From IMG/VR virus record IMGVR_UViG_3300042013_000056, positions 96,001 to 160,000 of that record: DNA of 64,000 nt; one strand, 5' to 3'. The notes beneath the pieces are model-generated. The model made no database searches. It saw only the letters and a list, made by a program, of their open reading frames with translations, and had not been told where the DNA came from. Below, piece by piece: positions 28,762 to 43,080 of this stretch. The stretch is from a virus. Made by a program: the position numbers and the translations under genes. Numbering within the stretch: position 1 is the stretch's first letter; every line of letters begins with the position of its first letter.

Positions 28762-28837
28762 TGGTGCAGCCAACGGGACTCGAACCCGTGCTTGGAGAAT
28801 TTAGAGTTCCCTGCCTTGCCAACTTGGCTATGGCTGC
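28762..28837 (-). tRNA. Amber suppressor tRNA (CTA)
   Basis: Canonical cloverleaf, GGGAA-CTCTAAA-TTCTC, TTCGAGT T-loop, CCA. Confidence 0.9.
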
Positions 28838-32185: not shown

Positions 32186-32260
32186 TGGTGTTCCCGGTCG
32201 GTAACGATCCGACTACCCGTTGCGTGTAAGGCAACCGCTCTCCCTTTGAGCTACAGGAAC
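32186..32260 (-). tRNA. tRNA-Val(TAC)
   Basis: GTTGC-CTTACAC-GCAAC, CCA. Confidence 0.88.
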
Positions 32261-32266
32261 TTTTAA

Positions 32267-32322
32267 CAGGTTACAGTTTTGGTTTTCATATGCGAGAAAG
32301 TTTGGACTGCTGTTTGTAACCT
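32267..32322 (-). ncRNA. AACAGCA-motif RNA, copy 1
   Basis: AGGTTAC-A-AACAGCAG...GTAACCT-G. Confidence 0.7.
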
Positions 32323-32326
32323 AAAT

Positions 32327-32400
32327 TGGCAGGGGTAGTAGGAATCGAACCTACGACAACGATGTCAAAGACCGTTGTGATACCATTTCACCATACCCCA
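32327..32400 (-). tRNA. tRNA-Gln(TTG)
   Basis: Loop CTTTGAC, CCA. Confidence 0.92.
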
Positions 32401-32550
32401 ATCTAACATGGTCAGCCGCTGCCTGACCGTAATACTACTTGTTCTTTACGAACTGGCTGTATCTGCGCTACGCGGGTCTGTTACCGTCATATTTCAACGG
32501 CTTGGTGTTTAACGTGCTTGAGACTCATACTCACACGATGCTTGCGCATT

Positions 32551-32640
32551 TGGCGGATACAGTAGGTATCGAACCCAAGCCGTATTAACAGCCCAACTGG
32601 TTAGCAACCAGCGCTACCAAACCTTGGCAGATCAGTATCC
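32551..32640 (-). tRNA. tRNA-Ser(GCT)
   Basis: Loop TTGCTAA, long variable arm, G73, CCA. Confidence 0.85.
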
Positions 32641-32873
32641 AAATCTTCTACAACAGTGCGGGATTCGAGGTAATCAATGTTTCTCTGATTACACACCAAC
32701 ACAACTCCGTACTTTTCACGTAATTCTTTGCTTGCTGCGATAGCCGCATCCAAACGTTCTTTCATTTTAGCGCGCTGTTCAGCCCTTTCATCCGGTGACT
32801 GTTGCTCATGATAACGCTTGAGCAATTCAGGGCACAGATGGAAGCCTGTATAACCGCAATGATCACATTTCAA
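32601..32873 (-). CDS. Hypothetical protein, 3' end overlaps tRNA-Ser(GCT)
   Basis: 90 aa ORF. Confidence 0.5.
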   Translation of the reverse strand: MKCDHCGYTGFHLCPELLKRYHEQQSPDERAEQRAKMKERLDAAIAASKELREKYGVVLVCNQRNIDYLESRTVVEDLDTDLPRFGSAGC

Positions 32874-33085
32874 GCCGAAACTACCGGTGCGAGTACCGCT
32901 TCGATGAAAAACTTACCATCATCAACAATACCAGCGACCTGATGGCCTTCAACCATGATACCAACACGGCGCATATCGAATTCTTCTGAAGTGTTCCCGA
33001 ACTTCGAATAGTCTGGAATGTAGCCAAGAGATTCAACACCCAAATCAACTTCAACAGGAACTTCTTTCAACGGCAGATTCAACAT
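32870..33085 (-). CDS. Hypothetical protein
   Basis: 71 aa ORF with TGTGAG upstream. Confidence 0.55.
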   Translation of the reverse strand: MLNLPLKEVPVEVDLGVESLGYIPDYSKFGNTSEEFDMRRVGIMVEGHQVAGIVDDGKFFIEAVLAPVVSA

Positions 33086-33110
33086 TTGATTCTCACATGG
33101 TTATAACAGT

Positions 33111-33201
33111 TGGCAGCGTTAAGAGGTATCGAACCCCAACCGGGATTAGCCGGTCGAACTACTTTCCAAGTAGACCCCATCACCATCAAGGATTTAACGC
33201 T
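33111..33201 (-). tRNA. tRNA-Ser(GGA)
   Basis: Loop TTGGAAA, long variable arm, G73, CCA. Confidence 0.85.
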
Positions 33202-33206
33202 ATATT

Positions 33207-33312
33207 TGGTGCAATGTCGCGGAGTCGAACCACGTTGTATCTCACTGACTGGGCCAATTTATCCCAGCGTTTAGGAAGCTATCCGTTGGCAACTAAATCA
33301 GGTCAACAATAC
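33207..33312 (-). ncRNA. Atypical tRNA-like RNA (Arg CCT-like loop, enlarged extra arm)
   Basis: Acceptor GTATTGT/ACATTGC, T-arm CGTGG-TTCGACT-CCGCG, TTCCTAA loop with weak stem, CCA. Confidence 0.55.
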
Positions 33313-33334
33313 AAGACCATTCACAAAGCATATT

Positions 33335-33410
33335 TGGTGCGGGCAACAGGACTTGAACCTGCAACTTCCTGCTTGGCAAGCAGGTACTCTACCAATTGAG
33401 CTATGCACGC
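33335..33410 (-). tRNA. tRNA-Gly(GCC)
   Basis: CCTGC-TTGCCAA-GCAGG, CCA. Confidence 0.93.
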
Positions 33411-33426
33411 ATTTTGAAACTTAATT

Positions 33427-33503
33427 TGGTGCCCATAGCGAGAATCGAACTCGCTTTTTACGGTTGAAAGCCGTATGTCCTAGACCGTGTAGACGATATG
33501 GGC
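33427..33503 (-). tRNA. tRNA-Glu(TTC)
   Basis: TACGG-CTTTCAA-CCGTA, CCA. Confidence 0.92.
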
Positions 33504-33507
33504 AAAG

Positions 33508-33622
33508 CTGGCTGCATTAACTGTAGTCGCCAGACCAGAGTTAGGATTCTCTGCCGGGAAATCGAATCCCGGTAATTTTCGTCAAAAGGAAAGTTTAGTT
33601 AATTGGTTGCTGTTAGCAGCCG
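33508..33622 (-). ncRNA. AACAGCA-motif RNA, copy 2
   Basis: GGCTGC-T-AACAGCAA...GCAGCC; internal T-arm-like CCGGGA-TTCGATT-TCCCGG. Confidence 0.7.
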
Positions 33623-33740
33623 TTCCTGTTTTTGGTTTGATACATCCCTAGTTGCACTTCCTGAGAAGGAATTTACGCAATTGCAGCAACTTATTGGGAT
33701 TCGATCAGTTGTCTCGGTTACTCTGACCTTGTATCAAATT

Positions 33741-33824
33741 TGGTACGGAATGAGGGATTCGAACCCTCAAGGGCACGGCTTCTAAGGCCGTTAGCTGTGC
33801 CAGATTTGCATTAGCCAATTCCGC
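33741..33824 (-). tRNA. tRNA-Leu(TAG), short variable loop and enlarged D-loop
   Basis: ACGGC-CTTAGAA-GCCGT, CCA. Confidence 0.8.
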
Positions 33825-33856
33825 ATTGTTTCGTTTTTCTGTTGCTTATACGTTAC

Positions 33857-33889
33857 ATTCTATATCAAATGTCACACAGAATAAACATT
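33857..33889 (-). promoter_or_regulatory. Phage promoter (tRNA block)
   Basis: AATGTTTA...TAGAAT. Confidence 0.78.
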
Positions 33890-33902
33890 AGAATCAATTA
33901 TT

Positions 33903-33977
33903 TGGTGGACCGCAAGGGGATCGAACCCTTACCCCCGACGTGCAAGGCCGGTGTGCTCCCATTATCACTAGCAGCCC
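33903..33977 (-). tRNA. tRNA-Ala(TGC)
   Basis: Loop CTTGCAC, G3:U70, CCA. Confidence 0.92.
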
Positions 33978-33987
33978 ATATTGTTAT

Positions 33988-34209
33988 TTAGGCGTACCCA
34001 ACGAACACATCGTTGATATACATCTTTAATTTCTTTTGTGGTAGCGCCCACTGTGCAGCATATTGAATGGCTTCACGGTACGATTTAAACGGCCCGCGAC
34101 AATCACCCTGCCCACGGCCTGTTCCTACGAACCATTCGCCGTTATCGAGCTTACAGACGCCACACAAGCCGCGTGCAGCCCGTTGTTTCAGGACTTGCAA
34201 TCTGGACAT
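33988..34209 (-). CDS. Hypothetical protein
   Basis: 73 aa ORF with TGTGAG upstream. Confidence 0.55.
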   Translation of the reverse strand: MSRLQVLKQRAARGLCGVCKLDNGEWFVGTGRGQGDCRGPFKSYREAIQYAAQWALPQKKLKMYINDVFVGYA

Positions 34210-34278
34210 ATCATTCTCACAATAGAAGGCTGCAACGTAACAAAGAACCAGTCTAAGCCAGTGGATGCAGCTCGTTTT

Positions 34279-34353
34279 TGGTAGTTCCGACCGGGAACGA
34301 TCCGGTGATTTGTCCTTATGAGGGACTTGGTTTACCGATTAGCCTACGGAACT
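34279..34353 (-). tRNA. tRNA(CAT), elongator Met or Ile2
   Basis: Loop CTCATAA, CCA. Confidence 0.85.
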
Positions 34354-34437
34354 ATATTTTTGACCTCTTGAGTGGCTTCTCCCCGAAGGTTTCCGCTTAT
34401 ATTGCCACTGGGAGTCACCCCAACGCCCGAAGGTGAT

Positions 34438-34516
34438 TGGTTGCGGGTGCTGGATTCGAACCAGCGAGCTTTGGCGTATGAAACCAATGAGATAGGCCAG
34501 ACTTCTCTAACCCGCA
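34438..34516 (-). tRNA. tRNA-fMet-like (CAT)
   Basis: TGCGGGT acceptor, loop TTCATAC, ACCCGCAACCA end. Confidence 0.8.
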
Positions 34517-34517
34517 A

Positions 34518-34868
34518 TTATTCTAATCTTAACCGCACATGTTCTTCACGATGGCAGTTGGCACATAGCATCAAACACTTATCTAACTCCGCCTGTATGA
34601 CTACCCAAGCTTTGTTATGTGTGTTGGCACCTATGCCGAAGTCTTTCTGTGTTGGGTCTTTGTGATGGAACTCAAGGGCTTCTACACACTTGTTGTAGCC
34701 GCACGTTTCACATCTACCACCCTTGTATGCAATAGCCATCATTTTGACTTTAGCACGCCGACGTTTTACAGCGTCGTACATACACTTGCGACAGCGCTCA
34801 TGGTATTTCTGCACCGAATGGACTGTTTCACCATGCTTGGCACAGACCTTGATTACTGTATCTACCAC
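34518..34868 (-). mobile_element. HNH endonuclease between tRNAs
   Basis: CETCGY...LEFHH...LCANCHREEH. Confidence 0.88.
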
Positions 34869-34883
34869 ATCAGACCTTATATT

Positions 34884-34958
34884 TGGTGCTACTAGCAGGA
34901 CTCGAACCTACGCCGATCGATTATCGGTCGATTGCACTACCAACTGTGCTATAGTAGC
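34884..34958 (-). tRNA. tRNA-Ile(GAT)
   Basis: ATCGA-CCGATAA-TCGAT, CCA. Confidence 0.9.
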
Positions 34959-34974
34959 TTTGTATCATTGAATT

Positions 34975-35051
34975 TGGTCACCCTACACAGATTCGAACTG
35001 TGTCTTCATCGTCCCAAACGATGTGTGCTAGCCGTTGAACACTATAGGGAG
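34975..35051 (-). tRNA. tRNA-Pro(TGG), copy 1
   Basis: CATCG-TTTGGGA-CGATG, CCA. Confidence 0.9.
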
Positions 35052-35053
35052 AT

Positions 35054-35135
35054 TGGTGGGTTATTGGTGGAATCGAACCACCGACCGTATCATACGTCCT
35101 GTACAAGACAGAATGAACAGCCAAACATGTAACCC
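35054..35135 (-). tRNA. tRNA-Tyr(GTA), divergent
   Basis: TTGTACA loop, variable arm CGTATGATACG, weak D-arm, CCA. Confidence 0.65.
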
Positions 35136-35149
35136 ATGAAACTTTAAAT

Positions 35150-35225
35150 TGGTCACCCCGAACAGATTTGAACTGTTTCTTCATCGTCCCAAACGACGTG
35201 TGCTACCGTTGAACACTACGGGGAG
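35150..35225 (-). tRNA. tRNA-Pro(TGG), copy 2
   Basis: Near-duplicate of 34975..35051. Confidence 0.9.
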
Positions 35226-35232
35226 TTAATAG

Positions 35233-35436
35233 CAGGTTGGCACCCTTTAACTATTGTGTCTGAGGATAATTTCCGACACGCACACAGTTATATCCCACTG
35301 TTCGGTTGCTACTTATTCTCTGTAGCCGATATCCAAGCGAACTTGGCGGTTTGATTGGTGTATTGTTGTTTGAACGAGTTCGGCAACAATAGTCCTATCT
35401 CTCTAGTATTTTTAGAGGTTTGCTGTATTCCAACCT
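35233..35436 (-). ncRNA. AACAGCA-motif RNA, copy 3 (long)
   Basis: AGGTTGG-A-ATACAGCAA...CCAACCT-G with several internal hairpins. Confidence 0.7.
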
Positions 35437-35488
35437 AATTGTGTAGGGTTAGATAGCCCTACGACCGTGCGGGGAGCAACAGTGTTCT

Positions 35489-35770
35489 TTACTTGTGCAT
35501 GACATCTAACAGATACTGGAAATCACTATCAGCGGCCTTGTAGGCAGCTTGGCGACGTTCTTCCAATAACTCTGGTGTCATCACTTTAAGGTCGGCCAAT
35601 AAAATACTGACACGAACCTTGGAATTTTTGATTACTACGCCTGCTTCGGACATAATCCGTTTACATCTGGCATCGGATTTACCGGTATACTCAACGACCT
35701 TGAACCAGCCGCGTTTGTCTTGGTAAAAACCTTTGTTGGAAAATACCAACGAACCCACTTGGACTGTCAT
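35489..35770 (-). CDS. Hypothetical protein
   Basis: Probable start MTVQV at 35770. Confidence 0.55.
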   Translation of the reverse strand: MTVQVGSLVFSNKGFYQDKRGWFKVVEYTGKSDARCKRIMSEAGVVIKNSKVRVSILLADLKVMTPELLEERRQAAYKAADSDFQYLLDVMHK

Positions 35771-35774
35771 GTAT

Positions 35775-36110
35775 TTAGCGACCCCGATTTGCGAGCAAAT
35801 GGTTACGAACTGCCTCGGCATGTGCGATTGCATCTTCATACATTTTCTCGACTTGCTGAACGCTGATTTTCGTTACCCAAGCAACTTCAATCGGTTTACC
35901 CGGCTTTGGGTTGCTGGTGATGTATTCATTGTTGTCAACCAGACGTTTTGCCTTTACATGCAAAATACCTTGGATTTCCAATACTTCTGAAACAACACCA
36001 ATACCATCACGACCTTTGTTGCCGACACGGATTTTGATCAAATCACCAAACTGAATGTCTTTCGCAAGATCGTCTTGCATTCGCTTTTGCAAATGTGTCA
36101 TCTGGTTCAA
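35775..36110 (-). CDS. Hypothetical protein
   Basis: 111 aa ORF. Confidence 0.55.
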   Translation of the reverse strand: MNQMTHLQKRMQDDLAKDIQFGDLIKIRVGNKGRDGIGVVSEVLEIQGILHVKAKRLVDNNEYITSNPKPGKPIEVAWVTKISVQQVEKMYEDAIAHAEAVRNHLLANRGR

Positions 36111-36136
36111 TATATAATTCTCACAATGAATTGTAT

Positions 36137-36234
36137 CTGAATCACCGGGTCAGTTACGCAACACCCTTTCGGGCACCCAATCTTTCAGGGCTTTACCGGC
36201 TAGCTGATTTTAGGGCTTTCGCCTACGATTCAAA
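36137..36234 (-). ncRNA. Structured RNA with GAAA tetraloops
   Basis: TGAATC/GATTCA closing stem; GGC-GAAA-GCC and CCC-GAAA-GGG hairpins. Confidence 0.5.
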
Positions 36235-36236
36235 TT

Positions 36237-36340
36237 TGGTTTGAACAGTTGGGTACGCAATGATTACGTCATTTCACCCTCTCCACTTCGAGGCGACTGA
36301 CCTAAGCCAGTTGTAATCACCCACAGATGTGTTGTTCAAA
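36237..36340 (-). ncRNA. CCA-terminated non-cloverleaf RNA
   Basis: TTTGAACA...TGTTCAAA-CCA terminal stem; inner GGGT/ACCC and GATTAC/GTAATC. Confidence 0.55.
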
Positions 36341-36342
36341 TT

Positions 36343-36418
36343 TGGTGCCGCAGAAAGGACTCGAACCCTCAACCTTCTCATTACAAGTGAGCTGCACTAC
36401 CAGTTGTGCTACAGCGGC
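36343..36418 (-). tRNA. tRNA-Thr(TGT)
   Basis: Loop CTTGTAA, CCA. Confidence 0.92.
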
Positions 36419-36591
36419 TTTTTGTATTCCTGTCTCATAACAAAACGATTCATCAAAGCATTAGCCAATGGATCATTGAGTAAATTTTTAATCAAATCCG
36501 GGGCCATCGGTTGAACCGATAGAAGTTCTCTTGCGAGTTGTTCCGGGTCAAACTTTGTAGCCCATTCACTCAACTGTTCTTTGGTCAGCAT
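36409..36591 (-). CDS. Hypothetical protein
   Basis: 60 aa ORF; its TAG stop lies in the 5' end of tRNA-Thr(TGT). Confidence 0.45.
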   Translation of the reverse strand: MLTKEQLSEWATKFDPEQLARELLSVQPMAPDLIKNLLNDPLANALMNRFVMRQEYKKPL

Positions 36592-36830
36592 GGTTCAGTC
36601 CGAAGAAGTGGATACTTCTCTTTGAAGCTTTCATGTTGACCACACCCGGAACACACATGAATGTATTTCGGTGGGTAAGTCAGGTAAGCTTCACCGGTTG
36701 CTACGAACTGCCCAACACAATTATTATGATCGGCGTGTACCTGATACGTTCGAACTTCAACCTTGCGTTCTGTTAACAGTGCAGCTCTATTACGCTGAAA
36801 CCGTTCAATCGCTTCTTCTCGGTTCATCAT
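36585..36830 (-). CDS. Hypothetical Zn-ribbon protein
   Basis: HVCSGCG; probable start MMNREE. Confidence 0.5.
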   Translation of the reverse strand: MMNREEAIERFQRNRAALLTERKVEVRTYQVHADHNNCVGQFVATGEAYLTYPPKYIHVCSGCGQHESFKEKYPLLRTEPC

Positions 36831-37243
36831 TTCCCACGTTTCTCCACAAGAGACTTTGCAAAATTGCAAGGCGAACACATGGTGGTTGTATTGCTGACAT
36901 TATCAGCACCACCCGCACTTCTCGCTAACGTATGATCATGAGTAAACAGAATCTCATTGCCCTTTTTATCTTTGCCCCAGAGGTTCAGATGATATGGAAA
37001 ATCATCAGTCTCTCTGACAGGACGTTCCACCGCATAGTAAGACGCGTGCAGCCCACATGCAGAACATTTGGTGCTACGATAAAACGTTCTTAACCGGGTT
37101 CCGCGACTGAACAGCTTGACTTGTTTACCAAACAGTTCAGTTCTGGGTTGATCCTTTGGGGAAGCTCCGACGACAGTTTTCTGTCTAGCCCGAATTTCCT
37201 TGATGTCAACAACACCTATACGATGATAATCTTGCGGCTTCAT
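36827..37243 (-). CDS. HNH-domain protein
   Basis: CSACG...THDHTLARSAGGADNVSN...MCSPCNFAK. Confidence 0.8.
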   Translation of the reverse strand: MKPQDYHRIGVVDIKEIRARQKTVVGASPKDQPRTELFGKQVKLFSRGTRLRTFYRSTKCSACGLHASYYAVERPVRETDDFPYHLNLWGKDKKGNEILFTHDHTLARSAGGADNVSNTTTMCSPCNFAKSLVEKRGK

Positions 37244-37273
37244 TGTATCAATCTCTTGCTTGGTTATGAATCA

Positions 37274-37306
37274 AGCATACCAGCATTGGAACAGAATGTA
37301 AACATT
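37274..37306 (-). promoter_or_regulatory. Phage promoter
   Basis: AATGTTTA...TATGCT. Confidence 0.72.
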
Positions 37307-37317
37307 TGAATCGAATT

Positions 37318-37514
37318 TGGTCGTGGGGGCCGGACTCGAACCAACGACCTTCGGCTTAGTTGCCGATGCTCTTAAAAACCGATAACCGCCAATGTGTCAT
37401 CCGGAAAGCAACGCCCATATCCACAAAACACTTCTACTGGCATCTAGCGTCTACTATATCGGTCGCGCACCGATGTTCAACATTCGAAATTTAATCCAAC
37501 TGAGCTACCCCACG
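37318..37514 (-). ncRNA. tRNA-like RNA with ~120 nt insertion in the D-loop
   Basis: Acceptor CGTGGGG/CCCCACG-A-CCA, D-stem GCTC/GAGC, TCGGC-AACTAA-GCCGA, TTCGAGT T-loop. Confidence 0.75.
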
Positions 37515-37623
37515 TTGCGCCATGGTTTTAGATTCAGACCCATGAACTGAATATTGCCTTGCGGCTACCTGATACTAAAGTCGGGGTTCCCATTAAAGGG
37601 GTATCCAACAATTGCATCAAATT

Positions 37624-37700
37624 TGGCTGGATATCTTGGAATCGAACCAAGCTCAAGTGATTAACAGTCACCCCGCAGCCGCCATGGCGCGTCATATCCA
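37624..37700 (-). tRNA. tRNA-Asn(GTT), copy 1
   Basis: GGTGA-CTGTTAA-TCACT, G73, CCA. Confidence 0.85.
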
Positions 37701-37708
37701 ATTTAATT

Positions 37709-37784
37709 TGGTGGGGTTCTTTGGATTCGCACCAACAACTGCGAAGTCGATGCCACGCCGCTTTCCTAATTAAGCTACAACCCC
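37709..37784 (-). ncRNA. tRNA-like RNA, degenerate anticodon arm, TGC T-loop
   Basis: GGGGTT/AACCCC-A-CCA, D-arm GCTT-AATTAGGA-AAGC, T-loop TGCGAAT. Confidence 0.65.
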
Positions 37785-37853
37785 TTCGTCACCCGATTCT
37801 TTCACTTCGGGTCTAGCGAGTGTTCGTTACCTTAGACATCGGGGTATCGAATT

Positions 37854-37930
37854 TGGCTCCGGTAGTAGGACTCGAACCTACGACCTGACGGTTAACAGCC
37901 GCCTGCTCTACCAACTGAGCTATACACGGA
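37854..37930 (-). tRNA. tRNA-Asn(GTT), copy 2
   Basis: GGCGG-CTGTTAA-CCGTC, one-base bulge in the acceptor, CCA. Confidence 0.88.
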
Positions 37931-37940
37931 ATTGAAATTT

Positions 37941-38031
37941 TGGTGGGGAACAGAAGACTTGCACTTCCAACCTTGGCTACTGGCCGACTATACCGGCGCT
38001 CGCCATGCTCTGCTAATTGAGCTAATTCCCC
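37941..38031 (-). ncRNA. tRNA-like RNA with expanded anticodon arm, TGC T-loop
   Basis: GGGGAAT/GTTCCCC-A-CCA, GCTC-AATTAGCA-GAGC, TGGC...GCCA enclosing a hairpin, T-loop TGCAAGT. Confidence 0.7.
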
Positions 38032-38192
38032 AGTACCGAATGCAATGATTGGAGTGGCGTGTACTTAGCCAGCCTCACATTGCATTCTGCTCTGTTGTGG
38101 ATATCCCATTCCCATTGCACGTTCATAACGTCGGTGGAGGCATCGAACCCCGGATAAGACAACAGCATTCTTTTTGATCGTTAGATCGAATT

Positions 38193-38271
38193 TGGTGGGA
38201 AAGGATGGAATTCAACCATCGTATTGCAGTGTCCAATGTTAACTGCTGCTCTTACATTCAGCCACTTTCCC
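38193..38271 (-). ncRNA. tRNA-like RNA with 11-nt anticodon loop
   Basis: GGGAAAG/CTTTCCC-A-CCA; GCAGT-TAACATTGGAC-ACTGC; GATGG-TTGAATT-CCATC. Confidence 0.7.
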
Positions 38272-38427
38272 TTTGGTCACCATCTTATAAACCGCTGATG
38301 AACGCGGTACAAGCTGCCACCGGTTGTTGCTACACCGATTAGACCTGTTGTCCCGAGAAGCCGCTAAGCTTCAATTGGAACCATCATACGTGGCCTTACT
38401 ACGTCTAGTTAGCACTACAGCATTGTT

Positions 38428-38511
38428 TGGTGGATCAGGTAGGGATCGAACCTACTTCGCCAGCGGCATGGGGTTACAGCCCACTAGGACTACCTGTGTC
38501 CCGTCTGATCC
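38428..38511 (-). tRNA. tRNA-Tyr(GTA)
   Basis: Loop CTGTAAC, variable arm, A73, CCA. Confidence 0.85.
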
Positions 38512-38834
38512 ATGTTCTATTTAGATCGGAGCAAATGGCTCAACAATCTGGAATTAGTAGCACCCGGTAAAAGGTCACATCATTGATCAATGATGCTAAC
38601 GTGCAATAGTTAGACACTTTGTCAGTCAAACAGGATTCTTTAACGAATTCCCCCATTATATCTCGGCTGATTGTTTCAAGAACATCCAGCAAATCTTCTA
38701 CCGATTAACGTCCGGTTGTATCCCGACATGGTTATGTTGTGAACCAGTACACACCAACCTGTTAACGAACAGCAGGGACAACCGCATGCATTTTACCCAG
38801 TGCATGATGGGATGTGCCGTTTACCCGGCAAATT

Positions 38835-38910
38835 TGGTGGGAAAGGATGGACTTGCACCACCCCACACCCGCTGTTAGCAGGCAGCTCTAGCTATCTGAG
38901 CTACTTTCCC
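38835..38910 (-). ncRNA. tRNA-like RNA (CTAACAG loop), TGC T-loop
   Basis: GGGAAAG/CTTTCCC-A-CCA, GCTC-AGATAGCTA-GAGC, T-loop TGCAAGT. Confidence 0.7.
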
Positions 38911-39046
38911 ATGGTGACGATTGAGTTCTATTGGTGATCGTCAAACCGCAAAACCCCTGAACTTTTGGGGATCAACGCTTATCCCCTTGGGCGTTGACAG
39001 AAACCAGTCGATACCCGAAGGCGTTAGAACTGAGGGAGTTTCCATT

Positions 39047-39123
39047 TGGTGGGTCGTCTGGGATTCGAACCCAGAACCTTCCGGTTAAAAGCCGGATATT
39101 CTAAACCGTTGAATTAACGACCC
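39047..39123 (-). tRNA. tRNA-Lys(TTT)
   Basis: TCCGG-CTTTTAA-CCGGA, CCA. Confidence 0.93.
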
Positions 39124-39138
39124 GGTGAAACTTGAATT

Positions 39139-39214
39139 TGGCGCCCATGAACGGACTCGAACCGTCAACTTACCGCTAGACAGGCGGTTACTCTACCAAT
39201 TGAGTTACATGAGC
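39139..39214 (-). tRNA. tRNA-Asp(GTC)
   Basis: ACCGC-CTGTCTA-GCGGT, G73, CCA. Confidence 0.9.
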
Positions 39215-39220
39215 TTTTAA

Positions 39221-39286
39221 CTGGATACCATTGGTCTTTTCAAAGATTAAAGGTTTGAATGATTTATGGTTTGCTGTTGGTATCCA
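39221..39286 (-). ncRNA. AACAGCA-motif RNA, copy 4
   Basis: TGGATAC-C-AACAGCAA...GTATCCA-G. Confidence 0.72.
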
Positions 39287-39291
39287 AAACT

Positions 39292-39361
39292 TGGTGCAGT
39301 AGCTGGATTTGACACCGGCATCAGTCGCTTTAGAGGCGTTGACTTCTTTAGTCGATACTGC
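39292..39361 (-). ncRNA. 70-nt compact tRNA-like RNA with CTA anticodon loop
   Basis: GCAGTA/TACTGC-A-CCA, GACT-AAAGA-AGTC, CGC-CTCTAAA-GCG. Confidence 0.7.
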
Positions 39362-39417
39362 AAATGGGGCCGATCATTCGGTTAAATTCCCCGGTAATTC
39401 TGTTTGCTTATACGGTA

Positions 39418-39450
39418 ATTGTATCACAACACAACCACCAAATAAACATT
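39418..39450 (-). promoter_or_regulatory. Phage promoter (compact CTA RNA and tRNA-like block)
   Basis: AATGTTTA...TACAAT. Confidence 0.78.
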
Positions 39451-39459
39451 GAAACTTAA

Positions 39460-39518
39460 CTAGTTGCACTTTTGCTTTCAAGCCAATATGAAATTTAAGT
39501 GTTTGCTGTTGGCAACTA
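39460..39518 (-). ncRNA. AACAGCA-motif RNA, copy 5
   Basis: TAGTTGC-C-AACAGCAA...GCAACTA-G. Confidence 0.72.
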
Positions 39519-39522
39519 AAAC

Positions 39523-39597
39523 TGGTACATCCGGTTGGACTCGAACCAACATAAGTCGGCTTAGAAGGCCGATGCACTTCCGTTATACCACGGATGT
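39523..39597 (-). tRNA. tRNA-Arg(TCT)
   Basis: TCGGC-CTTCTAA-GCCGA, CCA. Confidence 0.92.
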
Positions 39598-39605
39598 ATT
39601 GAAAC

Positions 39606-39684
39606 TGGTGGGCCAAAGCGGGATTCGAACCCTACCCTCATCCACTCTCTGGGATGCGCTCTATCCGCTAAGCTACTCGGACCC
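39606..39684 (-). ncRNA. tRNA-like RNA with 8-nt anticodon loop
   Basis: CATCC-CAGAGAGT-GGATG, D-arm GCTT/GAGC, TTCGAAT T-loop, CCA. Confidence 0.65.
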
Positions 39685-39697
39685 ATTTGATGTAATC

Positions 39698-39730
39698 AAT
39701 ATATCATATCAATCACACAAATTAAACATT
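39698..39730 (-). promoter_or_regulatory. Phage promoter
   Basis: AATGTTTA...TATATT. Confidence 0.72.
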
Positions 39731-39744
39731 GAAACTAAATTATT

Positions 39745-39832
39745 TGGCGGGCCACTGAGGTATCGATCCCCAATCGCGAAACGATCCACTAGTTTTCAAG
39801 ACTAGGCTACCAGCCATGGCAGTTAATGACCC
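39745..39832 (-). tRNA. tRNA-Ser(TGA)
   Basis: CTAGT-CTTGAAA-ACTAG, long variable arm, G73, CCA. Confidence 0.88.
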
Positions 39833-39833
39833 A

Positions 39834-40025
39834 TTAAATCTGTTTGAACACTGGCAGGTTGTAGGTATGCATTCTTACGAATTCACGACAATCCAATTTA
39901 ATTGGATTGCCTACAGTGTGTGGTGTACGTTCAGTGAACAATCCACCGTCGTCTTGCTCTACAAGGTACAACAACATGCAATTGCCGGTTGTGCCTTCCA
40001 GTTGTCCTTTAAAATACCGATCCAT
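39834..40025 (-). CDS. Hypothetical protein
   Basis: 63 aa ORF. Confidence 0.45.
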   Translation of the reverse strand: MDRYFKGQLEGTTGNCMLLYLVEQDDGGLFTERTPHTVGNPIKLDCREFVRMHTYNLPVFKQI

Positions 40026-40238
40026 TCAAAGCCCCATTACACTGACCAGAAGGCCATATTCTTGGATCATCTGATAGTTACGACCAGCATAGAAGAATTT
40101 GATGATACTAGACCCTTCAAACTCGATGCTTGGTTGAAACGAAACCAAATCCATGTGTTCATCTAATACGCCAATCACTTCATGGAAGTCGCTTGGGTTC
40201 AGATTTGTCTGAATGCTTTTCAAGTCTTTTGGAAACAT
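40026..40238 (-). CDS. Hypothetical protein
   Basis: 70 aa ORF. Confidence 0.5.
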   Translation of the reverse strand: MFPKDLKSIQTNLNPSDFHEVIGVLDEHMDLVSFQPSIEFEGSSIIKFFYAGRNYQMIQEYGLLVSVMGL

Positions 40239-40421
40239 TAAGCTGGTTCCTTTGGTATCATAAACGCGGGAGTCGGAGTGAATCGTTTCGGATTCCGTCC
40301 AGACCCTACGATGGTTAGCACCGGCTTTTGACGCTTAACCGGCTGTGAACCAAGTGTCCAGAAGCTGTTCAAGCCCCAGAAATTACCACGTTGTTTCATA
40401 ATATAAGTCTCACAATGAAAT

Positions 40422-40497
40422 TGGAGCGGACGACGAGACTTGAACTCGCAACAGCCTGCTTGGAAGGCAGGAACTCTACCAATTGAGTTACGTCCGC
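40422..40497 (-). tRNA. tRNA-Gly(TCC)
   Basis: CCTGC-CTTCCAA-GCAGG, U73, CCA. Confidence 0.93.
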
Positions 40498-40617
40498 AAA
40501 TGGAAAGCACTGTCTCACGACGTTCTCGCCACCGAATACCCAAGGCGCGGGTAATTCGTTTGTCAAGCACCGGTTAACTTGAAGCTTTTGTTCCGGCTGT
40601 GCCTGACTTGTGAATCT

Positions 40618-40650
40618 ACTATAACAGGGTTCTGTTCAATTCTAAACATT
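40618..40650 (-). promoter_or_regulatory. Phage promoter
   Basis: AATGTTTA...TATAGT. Confidence 0.75.
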
Positions 40651-40665
40651 GAAACAGAAATAATT

Positions 40666-40743
40666 TGGTGTGGATGATCGGACTCGAACCGACTCCTACC
40701 GGGTTTCAGGCCCGGTCGCTTCGTCCCTGTTAGCTTCATCTAC
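40666..40743 (-). ncRNA. Class-I tRNA body with TGA (Ser) anticodon, identity unclear
   Basis: CCGGG-CCTGAAA-CCCGG, short variable loop, A73, CCA. Confidence 0.7.
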
Positions 40744-40748
40744 AGATT

Positions 40749-40824
40749 TGGTGGGTTCAAACGGTAACGATCCGTTATCTATGGCTTTTCAGACCATCGC
40801 TTGTACCATATAAGCTATGAACCC
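40749..40824 (-). tRNA. tRNA-Phe(GAA)
   Basis: Loop CTGAAAA, CCA. Confidence 0.9.
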
Positions 40825-40828
40825 ATAA

Positions 40829-40949
40829 CAGAATGCATTTATCTATCGGCACGATTCGAACGTGCTTCTCCCTATGCCAAGGGTGGTTTACCTACATAAC
40901 CTACGCTGCAAAGATTGGTTGCATGAGATTGGTTGCTGTTAGCATTCTA
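40829..40949 (-). ncRNA. AACAGCA-motif RNA, copy 6 (encloses degenerate tRNA)
   Basis: AGAATGC-T-AACAGCAA...GCATTCT-G; internal GCACG-TTCGAAT-CGTGC T-arm. Confidence 0.72.
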
Positions 40950-41682: not shown

Positions 41683-43080
41683 TTACCAGTCGTAACGCGG
41701 AACGTTCAGAGTGTCCAACATCATAGACAGTGGGGTCACTTCTGGAACATCAGTTGCCGCCAGAATCGATTTCATGATTGCTGGACTGAATCCAGTAACC
41801 ATCGCAGTACCACCAACACCGAAGCTAACTGGCACGTTACCGAAACTGGAGTTCATGTTCCAGAAAATGATGTCCGGGCGTTTGTAGCCAGCGGCTGCAT
41901 ACATACGGTCAATCATTTCGAACGCTGAATCATTTTGGAAACCACGGTCCACGCTATTGAACTGCATGTCAGACCACAACAGAATCTTGGTCGGCATGTC
42001 TTCAACCGGAACTTTGTGTTTCACCGCCGATTTCAGAATCAGTTCGAACGACTTTTGCAGGTTGGTAGAACCACCCCACGGTGCAGATTTTGTCTTGCGA
42101 ACACGTTCGGTCAGTGTCTTGCAGTCCGACAGGTCCACCCATGTAGGGTTACTATCAAACGTGATGAACTGATCCTTGAAGATGCCCTTGGAACGCTCTG
42201 CAACGTAGATACCCAGAGATACCGCCACATCCATACAGGTCAGGCCCGGAGACGCGTTGTAGTTGCTCATAGAGCCCGACACATCGACGATACCAATCAG
42301 GTTCTCTTTCGAGTCTGCAAGGTAATCTGGCAATGCTTTCCACTGCGCATCAGCAACACCCTGAACACCATTCAAACCGCGAATGACATCGTAAGGGAAG
42401 ATCGCACCGGCATTGATGGTGGTTTTGCCTGTAGCAAGACCGTCAACCCATTCTTGGTACGCTTCTGGTGCATTACGCTTGAATGCCTTCTGGTAGTTCT
42501 TCGACGCAACCGATGGAAGCTTGCTGAAATCGATTTCGTTCCACTGCTGGGCACACATCTTCTGTTCAACAGTGTTGGACAGCTTGACGATCATTTTGCG
42601 GTAGTTGCGTTCGGTCAATTCGAACTGATTCATGAAGAACCGAGAATACTTCTTGCCTTCACGCGGCATCCACTTCGCACACAGACCGTTATTGTCAAGC
42701 AGAGCCTGAGCAACGATTTCAGTGATAACGAAGTCCAGTTGCTCACTGATACCGATCAGTTGCCACAGGTCATCCCAACGACCAACTTCCGGGATTTTTG
42801 CGATGATACGCGCTGTGGTGTGAATGTGTTGTTCACGGGCGATTTGCCCCATCAACGAACGGAAAGTCTGACGTTCACCAGCACCACCGCGAATATCACG
42901 AACCCACAACAGTTGACGAACTGCCAAATCGGCATCTTCGTTGTACGCAGCACGGAACTGGCTCGACAGGTCAAGACCACGGGCCGAACCGATCTTGGCG
43001 AACAGATCGACGTTTGCATTGAAGCTGGTTTTCTGTGCAGCCATACCGTTGGTGGTACGAGTCATGTTAGTTTGATTCAT
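41683..43080 (-). CDS. DUF2828-type (TROVE/Ro-related) protein with C-terminal vWA domain
   Basis: TTNG, RDIRGGAGERQTF, GRWDDL, AKWMPRE, MIDAS DVSGSM, WGGSTNLQK, SDMQF, FWNM; start MNQTN at 43080 behind its own promoter. Confidence 0.85.
   Translation of the reverse strand: MNQTNMTRTTNGMAAQKTSFNANVDLFAKIGSARGLDLSSQFRAAYNEDADLAVRQLLWVRDIRGGAGERQTFRSLMGQIAREQHIHTTARIIAKIPEVGRWDDLWQLIGISEQLDFVITEIVAQALLDNNGLCAKWMPREGKKYSRFFMNQFELTERNYRKMIVKLSNTVEQKMCAQQWNEIDFSKLPSVASKNYQKAFKRNAPEAYQEWVDGLATGKTTINAGAIFPYDVIRGLNGVQGVADAQWKALPDYLADSKENLIGIVDVSGSMSNYNASPGLTCMDVAVSLGIYVAERSKGIFKDQFITFDSNPTWVDLSDCKTLTERVRKTKSAPWGGSTNLQKSFELILKSAVKHKVPVEDMPTKILLWSDMQFNSVDRGFQNDSAFEMIDRMYAAAGYKRPDIIFWNMNSSFGNVPVSFGVGGTAMVTGFSPAIMKSILAATDVPEVTPLSMMLDTLNVPRYDW

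What the first reader, a model, noticed from the sequence alone, without database searches (positions are those of the whole stretch)
37709..38910. Family of tRNA-like RNAs with scrambled anticodon arms but a covarying A18/G55-type elbow
Seen: RNAs at 37709, 37941 and 38835 replace the D-loop TGG with TAG (AATTAGGA, AATTAGCA, AGATAGCTA). All three also replace the T-loop TTC with TGC (TGCGAAT, TGCAAGT, TGCAAGT). Acceptor stems and CCA are intact, while the anticodon arms are degenerate, expanded or odd. RNAs 38193 and 38835 share the acceptor and a 16-nt 3' end (CCATCCTTTCCCACCA). Their loops contain TAACA, and 38835 reads GCTAACAGC like the ACAGCA RNAs. A paired D/T change in three RNAs argues for a maintained L-shape rather than decay. 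Inference: non-decoding tRNA mimics acting as decoys for anticodon nucleases or uncharged-tRNA sensors, or YrlA-like RNP components.
Basis: partly seen in the sequence, partly recalled or inferred. Interest (0 to 1): 0.7.

Follow-up and report, generated by a model that had tools for sequence, protein, structure and literature searches.

The report
Phage tRNA look-alikes with alternative elbow
Four tRNA-shaped genes in a Pseudomonas-type phage's tRNA island are real: three use a rare but natural, co-varying version of the contact that holds the tRNA "elbow" together. Two have conserved arms that cannot read codons, so they look like selected tRNA mimics, but what they do is not shown.

Summary
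E1 (37709-37784), E2 (37941-38031), E3 (38193-38271) and E4 (38835-38910), all on the minus strand, are cloverleaf genes with encoded CCA. All four pass Rfam's tRNA threshold.

E1, E2 and E4 pair a TAG D-loop with a TGC T-loop. This A18/G55 coupling is true covariation:
- four ortholog groups switch both sides together;
- in one fixed D-arm context, G18 goes with U55 in 69 of 71 sequences and A18 with G55 in 110 of 128.

The coupling is not a mark of mimics. It occurs in ordinary decoding tRNAs of phages and bacteria, including the only tRNA-Phe found in a Saccharibacteria genome.

- E4 has a normal 7-nt loop (U33, anticodon AAC), so it may simply be a tRNA.
- E2 carries a conserved 33-nt two-helix arm: five compensatory pairs, none broken.
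- E3 carries an 11-13-nt loop that is invariant across four phages.
- Both E2 and E3 are non-decoding and under selection.
- The window's E1 copy is partly degenerate.

A Ro60/TROVE-fold protein lies 3-4 kb upstream, but no feature of YrlA is met. The decoy and RNP roles remain untested, and no expression data could be obtained.

The scan noted this stretch before, from another window.

The parts
37709..37784 (-). E1: a tRNA-like gene with the A18/G55 elbow. Its family carries a 5-nt-loop hairpin in place of the anticodon arm. The window copy has mismatches at 7-66 and 49-65 and a poorly paired anticodon stem.
   Evidence: Rfam tRNA 30.3 bits. Segments parsed. Orthologs L005:15239-15315 and L004:15714-15791 are perfect cloverleafs, with 2 compensatory D-stem pairs.
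37941..38031 (-). E2: a 91-nt tRNA-like gene with the A18/G55 elbow. The anticodon arm is replaced by a 4-bp outer helix, a conserved asymmetric internal loop (4 nt / 5 nt, resembling a loop-E motif), a 5-bp inner helix and a 5-nt loop.
   Evidence: Rfam tRNA 39.2 bits with a 24-nt insertion at the anticodon loop. The minimum-free-energy fold gives this structure. Orthologs in Milchi and Astolliot: 25 pairs, 100% paired, 5 compensatory; slid controls give 40-56% paired.
38193..38271 (-). E3: a 79-nt tRNA-like gene with a 4-5-bp anticodon stem and an 11-13-nt loop that is invariant in four phages. In this copy the elbow has relaxed: the GG is lost and position 56 varies.
   Evidence: Rfam tRNA 45.2 bits. 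It is 93.7% identical to Milchi and Astolliot. Against L003 there are 6 compensatory pairs and 95.6% of cells are paired, while the loop stays identical.
38835..38910 (-). E4: a 76-nt cloverleaf with the A18/G55 elbow and a canonical 7-nt loop (U33, anticodon AAC, A37). It is a paralog of E3, sharing the acceptor stem and the 3' strand of the T stem.
   Evidence: ARAGORN calls it tRNA-Val(aac). Rfam tRNA 43.1 bits. GTT makes up 45% of Val codons in the window's long ORFs. No sequence ortholog was found.
38272..38346 (-). A conserved leader of about 75 nt directly upstream of E3. It may be a promoter or 5' leader cassette. The leader in front of E1 is the one that precedes the E3-like gene in L003.
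   Evidence: Alignment of upstream regions and leader listing. No function is shown.
41686..43080 (-). Context only: a Ro60/TROVE + vWA-fold protein encoded on the same strand, 2.8-3.9 kb upstream of E1-E4 in the direction of transcription.
   Evidence: Pfam DUF2828 + DUF7788. PHROG 850 'RNA-binding protein'. AlphaFold model pLDDT 83.9. Foldseek top hits are all Ro60 or Rsr, including the Thermus phage phiLo Ro60, with E about 1e-8 and TM 0.5-0.67.

Best explanation
E1-E4 are tRNA-derived genes inside the 19-kb, single-strand tRNA island of a ~183-kb phage related to Pseudomonas phages Milchi and Astolliot.

All four keep the parts that tRNA-handling enzymes read: a 7-bp acceptor stem, A73, encoded CCA, D and T arms, and the same AAT-type 3' trailer as the canonical tRNAs.

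Three of them hold the elbow together with A18/G55 in place of G18/U55. This is a natural, co-varying alternative that also works in ordinary decoding tRNAs, so their L-shape is intact.

They differ in the anticodon arm:
- E4 has a normal loop and may decode GUU as a tRNA-Val(AAC).
- E2 has a conserved 33-nt two-helix arm with an invariant internal loop.
- E3 has a short stem with an invariant 11-13-nt loop.
- The E1 family has a 5-nt-loop hairpin.

None of E1, E2 or E3 can present an anticodon.

Inferred mechanism: E2 and E3, and E1 in relatives, are made and matured like tRNAs. They then act in trans as tRNA-shaped RNAs that dock on a tRNA-binding partner through acceptor and elbow, while the remodelled arm provides the specific contact.

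Shown: structure, conservation and covariation. Not shown: expression, maturation, charging and partner.
For: - Cloverleaf and tRNA-model scores.
- Shared 3' trailer with canonical tRNAs.
- E2: 25 of 25 pairs kept in three phages, 5 compensatory pairs, internal loop invariant.
- E3: the acceptor stem changed at 5 of 7 pairs with full compensation against L003, while the loop and flanking stem are identical. Its 93.7% identity to Milchi is above nearly all canonical tRNAs, which range 74-89%.
- E1 orthologs in L004 and L005 are perfect cloverleafs with 5-nt loops.
- Elbow covariation in the 82 related loci: x-G-C T-loops go with AG-only D-loops in 17 of 18 cases; x-T-C T-loops go with GG in 265 of 278.
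- Independent samples chosen on an A18 D-arm: G55 in 78 of 84 viral cloverleafs and 87 of 100 cellular cloverleafs.
- Same-context table: 69/0 against 18/110.
- Coupled switches between orthologs in the E1, E2 and E3 families, and between the initiator-type tRNA-Met copies of the window and L013, which I did not confirm as orthologs.
- The only tRNA-Phe seen in a Saccharibacteria genome has A18/G55.
Against: - There is no expression, processing or charging evidence.
- Orthologs are few (1-3 per family) and closely related, so the covariation counts rest on few events.
- E4 has no ortholog.
- The window's E1 carries two stem mismatches and an unpaired anticodon stem, as a decaying copy would.
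- The set turns over quickly between relatives: order differs, modules are swapped and members are missing. That also fits duplication and decay.
- No partner or target was identified. The E3 loop has no excess of matches on either strand in the window, so no complementary target stands out.
Confidence: 0.6

Rival explanations
1. Duplicated tRNA genes in decay. The island makes copies by duplication and homing-endonuclease traffic, and E1-E4 are relics on their way out, carried along without function.
For: - The window's E1 has G-G and G-A mismatches and a broken anticodon stem.
- E4 has no ortholog.
- Gene order and content differ among close relatives, and HNH or GIY-YIG endonuclease genes sit in the island.
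- There are no expression data.
Against: - E2 and E3 keep every helix through 5 and 6 compensatory changes.
- The E3 loop is invariant while its stems diverge.
- E3 is more conserved than most canonical tRNAs.
- The elbow switches on both sides together rather than on one side.
Confidence: 0.17
2. These RNAs soak up host tRNA-directed defence enzymes (anticodon nucleases such as PrrC, RloC, PARIS AriB or retron PtuAB) or uncharged-tRNA sensors.
For: - Phage tRNAs are known to counter tRNA-cleaving defences (PMC10264068; PMC11555353; PMC13056530, read).
- E1-E3 keep everything except the decoding loop.
- The set evolves fast, as conflict genes do.
Against: - Known escapes work by supplying cleavage-resistant decoding tRNAs, not decoys.
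- The loops of E1-E3 resemble no normal 7-nt anticodon loop, so they are poor competitive substrates for enzymes that read the anticodon.
- Strict conservation of the E3 loop and the E2 internal loop points to one specific partner rather than a generic sponge.
- Nothing was tested functionally.
Confidence: 0.15
3. Ro60-type RNP components. These RNAs would play the role that YrlA plays for bacterial Ro60, binding the island's TROVE-fold protein and tethering it to tRNA-binding factors or nucleases.
For: - A Ro60-fold protein is encoded on the same strand 2.8-3.9 kb away.
- Bacterial and phage Ro60 proteins use tRNA-like or Y-like RNAs (PMC4201824, PMC12135203).
- The extended arm of E2 sits where YrlA carries its Ro60-binding stem.
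Against: - There is no Rfam Y RNA or YrlA hit.
- The topology is opposite: here the ends form the acceptor stem.
- The near-match in E2 to the GNCGAA-type motif is on the wrong strand and is not kept in Milchi.
- The motif that tracks this protein family is ACAGCAA, piled up just upstream of the gene in about 60 loci.
- E1-E3 lack that motif, and E4's near-match is at chance level.
- The protein is far more widespread than E2 or E3.
Confidence: 0.1
4. All four are decoding tRNAs with unusual loops, acting as frameshift or other recoding suppressors. E4 would be a plain tRNA-Val(AAC).
For: - E4 has U33, A37, A35-C36, A73 and a regular stem, and GTT is the commonest Val codon.
- ARAGORN reports 6- and 8-nt-loop 'tRNAs' in relatives.
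- An amber suppressor tRNA lies in the same island.
Against: - A 5-nt loop, an 11-13-nt loop and a 33-nt two-helix arm cannot present an anticodon with a U-turn.
- From general knowledge, A34 is almost unknown in bacterial-type tRNAs outside tRNA-Arg(ACG).
- This reading fits E4 only. I give about 0.45 for E4 alone; the 0.05 below is for all four.
Confidence: 0.05

Closest known systems
Ordinary tRNAs (Rfam RF00005), including the A18/G55 subclass seen here in phage, giant-virus and Patescibacteria tRNAs
   Same: Cloverleaf, 7-bp acceptor stem, CCA, D and T arms. All four pass the family threshold. E1, E2 and E4 share the TAG/TGC elbow with many tRNAs that have normal anticodon loops.
   Different: E1-E3 have no 7-nt anticodon loop. 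E3 has also lost the 19-56 pair. E4 differs only in the elbow variant and A34.
YrlA-type bacterial Y RNAs, the tRNA-like partners of Ro60 (PMC4201824)
   Same: A tRNA-like module with D and T arms, encoded on the same strand as, and within a few kb of, a Ro60-fold protein. A non-tRNA helix sits in the anticodon-arm position (E2).
   Different: YrlA is circularly permuted: its ends lie in the Ro60-binding stem and its acceptor stem is closed by a loop. It also carries a GNCGAA-type motif. E1-E4 have open acceptor ends with CCA, no conserved motif of that kind and no Rfam hit.
Non-proteinogenic tRNA-Gly of Staphylococcus, diverted to cell-wall synthesis (PMC4574755)
   Same: tRNAs that have lost G18-G19 and U55-C56 yet are charged and used off the ribosome. 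This is a precedent for elbow variants marking a non-ribosomal role.
   Different: Those tRNAs keep a normal anticodon loop and use U18/U19 or C18/U19, not the coupled A18/G55. A18/G55 tRNAs appear to decode normally elsewhere.
Phage tRNAs that resist tRNA-cleaving defences (PMC10264068, PMC11555353)
   Same: They are encoded in phage tRNA clusters, and the variation concentrates in the anticodon arm.
   Different: Those are decoding tRNAs with point changes in a 7-nt loop. E1-E3 have replaced the loop altogether.
Stable RNAs 'species 1 and 2' of the phage T4 tRNA cluster (from memory, not checked here)
   Same: Small stable RNAs of unknown function, co-encoded and co-processed with phage tRNAs and with tRNA-like ends.
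   Different: Those are longer (about 140 nt) and not cloverleaf-shaped. No sequence relation was tested.

Membership tests
tRNA (RF00005) | Covariance-model score at or above the gathering score of 29 bits | tested here: met
   E1 30.3 and E3 45.2, E2 39.2, E4 43.1. E2 and E4 were lost to the speed filters in the larger scans.
tRNA (RF00005) | 5-bp anticodon stem with a 7-nt loop, U33 and a purine at 37 | tested here: not met
   Met by E4 only. E1 has a 5-nt loop in relatives and a broken stem here. E2 has a 24-nt insertion forming a second helix. E3 has an 11-13-nt loop.
tRNA (RF00005) | Elbow contacts 18-55 and 19-56 | tested here: met
   The contacts are kept in the alternative A18/G55 + G19/C56 form in E1, E2 and E4. 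The covariation is supported. E3 in the window keeps neither GG nor C56.
tRNA (RF00005) | Aminoacylation and use on the ribosome | not testable with these tools
   No RNA or charging data.
YrlA / bacterial Y RNA | Match to the Rfam Y RNA or YrlA models | tested here: not met
   No such hit at E up to 1 in 21.5 kb or up to 10 in 1.2 kb.
YrlA / bacterial Y RNA | 5' and 3' ends pair into the Ro60-binding stem, and the tRNA-like acceptor stem is closed by a loop | tested here: not met
   In E1-E4 the ends form the acceptor stem and carry CCA. The YrlA layout is from PMC4201824.
YrlA / bacterial Y RNA | Conserved GNCGAA(N)G motif | tested here: not met
   The window's E2 has a 7-of-8 match in the 5' strand of its arm, but Milchi and Astolliot do not keep it, and it lies on the opposite strand to YrlA's.
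YrlA / bacterial Y RNA | Encoded within about 4 kb of a Ro60 gene on the same strand | tested here: met
   E4 lies 2.8 kb and E1 3.9 kb from the Ro60-fold gene, on the same strand. This is weak evidence, because about 40 tRNA genes share that neighbourhood.
YrlA / bacterial Y RNA | Binding to the Ro60 protein | not testable with these tools
   The complex predictor takes proteins only.
Tymovirus-type tRNA-like structure (RF00233) | Model score at or above 40 bits | tested here: not met
   E4 scores 15.9 bits. The only resemblance is the TGCAA-type T-loop.
Anticodon-nuclease decoy (no curated family) | Mimics the anticodon stem-loop of the tRNA that the nuclease cuts | tested here: not met
   The loops of E1-E3 are 5, 5 (on a second helix) and 11-13 nt long and match no canonical loop. 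Protection itself is not testable here.

The most novel reading that the evidence does not exclude
Two linked claims.

(1) A18/G55 is an unrecognised, functionally equivalent alternative to the near-universal G18/U55 elbow contact. It is used by sole isoacceptors in Patescibacteria and by many viral tRNAs, and filter-based annotation systematically under-calls it.

(2) E2 and E3 are a new class of trans-acting phage tRNA mimics. They enter the tRNA maturation pathway, and perhaps the valine-charging pathway, since E3 and E4 share A73 and an A-A-C triplet in the loop. They use a remodelled anticodon arm to engage one specific tRNA-binding host or phage factor.
Probability: 0.25. Interest if true: 0.8.

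Novelty: new variant of a known kind. Interest (0 to 1): 0.55.

Why it matters
Phage tRNA clusters are now read mainly as codon supply or as spare parts against tRNA-cutting defences. Conserved tRNA-shaped RNAs that cannot decode would add a third role, and they are easy to test because Milchi and Astolliot are cultured phages.

Separately, the elbow contact G18-U55 is treated as almost invariant. A clean, recurrent two-sided switch to A18-G55 in decoding tRNAs of phages and small-genome bacteria bears on several things:
- tRNA folding;
- enzymes that read or modify positions 18, 54 and 55;
- ribosome and T-box elbow contacts;
- gene finders. Rfam's filters dropped two of these genes in normal-sized scans.

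Tried and rejected
- More E3 orthologs: an exact-pattern scan of IMG/VR found only the L003 contig. GenBank phages hold E2 and E3 only in Milchi and Astolliot.
- A pairing target for the E3 loop: matches on either strand of the window are no more than chance.
- Promoter and terminator scan of 36.3-41.2 kb: not above shuffles in a useful way.
- Sequence search of the TROVE-like protein against PDB chains gave only weak vWA hits. The fold search was needed.
- Kink-turn reading of the E2 internal loop: rejected by inspection, since no 3-nt bulge followed by G-A is present. The loop-E (AGUA/GAA-like) reading is only a resemblance, with G in place of the third A. L165 carries the exact motif at the same place.
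- My automatic 'canonical anticodon arm' classifier was too rigid and its table was discarded.
- The stem-closure test for ACAGCA units did not separate them from random positions.
- Literature: two searches for A18/G55 in tRNA found nothing relevant. That does not prove it is undescribed.

Full report
**Setting.**
The window is bases 96001-160000 of a 182,859-bp IMG/VR phage record. Between about 26.4 and 45 kb the minus strand carries a tRNA island. ARAGORN finds 32 tRNAs there, and Rfam adds several that ARAGORN misses. The nearest cultured relatives are Pseudomonas phages Milchi (L001) and Astolliot (L002, genus Otagovirus). Their islands are collinear in outline. Milchi's annotators already label the counterparts of E2 and E3 'tRNA-OTHER'. 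Eighty further related loci (L003-L082) were fetched from IMG/VR through a 465-aa protein encoded in the island.

**The observation.**
On the minus strand, E1 (37709-37784), E2 (37941-38031), E3 (38193-38271) and E4 (38835-38910) each have an acceptor stem, D arm, T arm, discriminator A and encoded CCA.
- All four reach Rfam's tRNA threshold of 29 bits: 30.3, 39.2, 45.2 and 43.1.
- E2 and E4 were invisible in the 21.5-kb and 1.2-kb scans. They appeared only when scanned alone, so the speed filters drop this elbow variant.
- The 3' trailers of all four begin with AAT or AAA, like most canonical tRNAs of the island. This fits shared processing but does not prove it.
- Two details need correcting. 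E4's anticodon arm is regular, with a 7-nt loop, U33, anticodon AAC and A37. E1's D-loop still contains GG.

**The elbow.**
A cloverleaf scanner of my own, run on the window and on L001-L082, gave 312 tRNA-like genes.
- T-loops with T at position 55 go with a GG-containing D-loop in 265 of 278 cases.
- T-loops with G at position 55 go with an AG-only D-loop in 17 of 18 cases. The one exception is the E1-type loop.
- The G55 genes include tRNAs with ordinary loops for Ile, Met, Glu, Phe, Asn and Tyr.

Two independent samples were drawn on one 18-nt D-arm that carries A18.
- In IMG/VR, 84 cloverleafs were recovered and 78 have G55.
- In the species-representative bacterial and archaeal genomes, 100 were recovered and 87 have G55. 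Most come from Saccharibacteria, Parcubacteria-type lineages, Omnitrophota and Planctomycetes.
- Within the same D-arm context and counting unique sequences, G18 pairs with U55 in 69 of 71 and never with G55. A18 pairs with G55 in 110 of 128. The Fisher p is about 1e-36, but the sequences are not phylogenetically independent.

Both sides also switch together between orthologs.
- E2 has TAG/TGC here and TGG/TTC in Milchi and Astolliot.
- The E3 family has TAG/TGC in L003.
- The E1 family has TGG/TTC in L004 and TAG/TGC in L005 and here.
- The initiator-type tRNA-Met is canonical here and TAG/TGC in L013. I did not confirm that these two copies are orthologs.

In one Saccharibacteria genome, the only tRNA-Phe among 41 of its 46 tRNAs is an A18/G55 tRNA. 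Its initiator-like tRNA-Met also has a TGC T-loop and no GG.

So the covariation is real and the elbow is maintained. It is a property of working tRNAs, not a signature of mimics.

**The anticodon arms.**
- E2: the normal arm is replaced by a 4-bp helix, an internal loop of 4 and 5 nt, a 5-bp helix and a 5-nt loop. RNAfold recovers this structure. Across the three orthologs all 25 pairs of the whole molecule stay paired. Five pairs change on both sides, three of them in the novel arm. Slid controls give 40-56% pairing and 0-1 such pairs. The internal loop is invariant while the terminal loop differs. It resembles a loop-E/bulged-G motif. An unrelated IMG/VR tRNA-like gene, L165, also TAG/TGC, has the exact consensus at the same place. 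That is a lead only.
- E3: a 4-5-bp stem closes an 11-13-nt loop that is identical in the window, Milchi, Astolliot and L003. The acceptor stem of L003 differs at five of seven pairs, all compensated, and the anticodon stem shows an A-U/G-C exchange. E3 is 93.7% identical to Milchi, whereas most canonical tRNAs of the island are 74-89%.
- E1: L004 and L005 have perfect cloverleafs with a 5-nt-loop hairpin. The window copy has two stem mismatches and a badly paired anticodon stem. I regard this copy as possibly decaying.
- E4: no ortholog was found. It shares its acceptor stem and T-stem strand with E3, so the two are paralogs or have exchanged sequence. Its anticodon would read GTT, which is 45% of Val codons in the window's long ORFs. 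A34 is unusual for bacterial-type tRNAs (general knowledge).

**Surroundings.**
The stretch between tRNA-Lys and tRNA-Asn holds a changing collection of odd tRNA-like genes in every close relative. These include 6- and 8-nt loops, a GCAA-capped arm with compensatory changes in L001, L002 and L005, and long inserts. Leaders move with, or independently of, the genes. The spacer in front of the window's E1 precedes the E3-like gene in L003.

The 465-aa protein at 41686-43080 matches Pfam DUF2828 and DUF7788. It folds as a Ro60/TROVE ring plus a vWA domain. Its twelve best structural matches are all Ro60-type (TROVE) chains, including the Thermus phage phiLo Ro60.

Bacterial Ro60 uses YrlA, a permuted tRNA-like RNA with a GNCGAA-type motif. 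The phiLo protein binds two Y-like RNAs encoded just upstream of its gene.
- E1-E4 do not fit that description: they have open acceptor ends, no model hit and no conserved motif.
- The sequence that does track this protein family is ACAGCAA. It occurs 517 times on the gene strand against 107 on the other strand.
- In its ACAGCA[AG] form, 149 copies lie in the 1 kb just upstream of the gene across the loci. One 394-kb contig has five tandem units there.
- That belongs to another first-stage note. E4's near-match to the motif is at chance level.

**Reading.**
The best-supported statement is structural and evolutionary.
- E2 and E3 are selected, tRNA-shaped RNAs that cannot decode.
- E4 may be a plain tRNA with the alternative elbow.
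- E1 is a member of a short-loop family and is in poor shape in this genome.

How E2 and E3 act is inferred, not shown. They keep what RNase P, the 3'-end enzymes, synthetases and EF-Tu read, and they each offer one invariant new surface. I therefore expect a specific tRNA-binding partner rather than a generic sponge.

A substrate-type decoy for anticodon nucleases is unlikely, because no anticodon loop is mimicked. A Ro60-type RNP role is possible but lacks any specific support. Decay cannot be excluded for E1 and E4.

**Novelty.**
The genes exist in GenBank as undetermined tRNAs. What is new is the evidence that E2 and E3 are conserved non-decoders, and the breadth of the A18/G55 switch. I found no paper on that switch in two searches, which is not proof that it is undescribed. 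The same stretch was also noted from another window of this scan.

Noticed in passing
window 32267-40949 (six copies noted by the first stage); L059:9034-9768; the 1 kb upstream of the Ro60-like gene in L003-L082: The motif ACAGCA[AG] is 4-fold enriched on the gene strand (761 vs 187 copies). It piles up in the 1 kb just upstream of the TROVE/Ro60-fold gene: 149 copies against 4-64 in each other 1-kb bin. It often occurs as tandem stem-closed units. These are likely the Y-RNA equivalents of this protein family.
   Followed up: partly
window 37941-38031 and 38835-38910: Rfam's speed filters drop tRNAs with the A18/G55 elbow. There was no hit in 21.5-kb or 1.2-kb scans, but 39 and 43 bits when each gene was scanned alone. 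Such tRNAs are probably under-annotated.
   Followed up: yes
L311, L319, L327 and other Saccharibacteria loci; L093, L122, L123 (IMG/VR): A second, stronger T-loop variant (G54 G55 C56 R57 G58, e.g. GGCAGAG) goes with the same A18 D-arm. It occurs in tRNA-Thr(UGU) of many Saccharibacteria and in viral tRNAs.
   Followed up: no
window 37318-37514 (-); L001:14366-14559: A tRNA with about 120 extra nt inside the D-loop and a 6-nt AACTAA loop. Milchi annotates the counterpart as a 194-nt tRNA-OTHER.
   Followed up: no
window 37854-37931 (-): A tRNA-Asn(GTT)-like gene that scores 58 bits in Rfam but is missed by ARAGORN, because its acceptor stem needs a deletion to pair. It is 100% identical to L003:16725.
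   Followed up: partly
window 32186-32260, 34279-34353, 40749-40824, 39745-39832 (-): Several tRNAs have T-loops beginning ATCGT, with A54 and T58 in place of T54 and A58. This looks like a second coupled T-loop switch, and 24 of 24 such genes in the related loci keep GG in the D-loop.
   Followed up: partly
L001:10107-10191, L002:10309-10394, L005:15007-15089: A tRNA-like family whose anticodon arm is a hairpin capped by a GCAA tetraloop, with compensatory stem changes between phages. It sits just before tRNA-Arg(TCT). At that position the window has the odd 8-nt-loop gene 39608-39686.
   Followed up: partly
window 33741-33824 (-); L045:17957-18039: A tRNA-Leu(TAG)-like gene with an aberrant, GG-less D region. 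It is conserved in a distant relative, scores 42 bits in Rfam and is missed by ARAGORN.
   Followed up: no
window 28762-28837 (-): A canonical amber-suppressor tRNA (anticodon CTA), which ARAGORN calls tRNA-Pyl.
   Followed up: no
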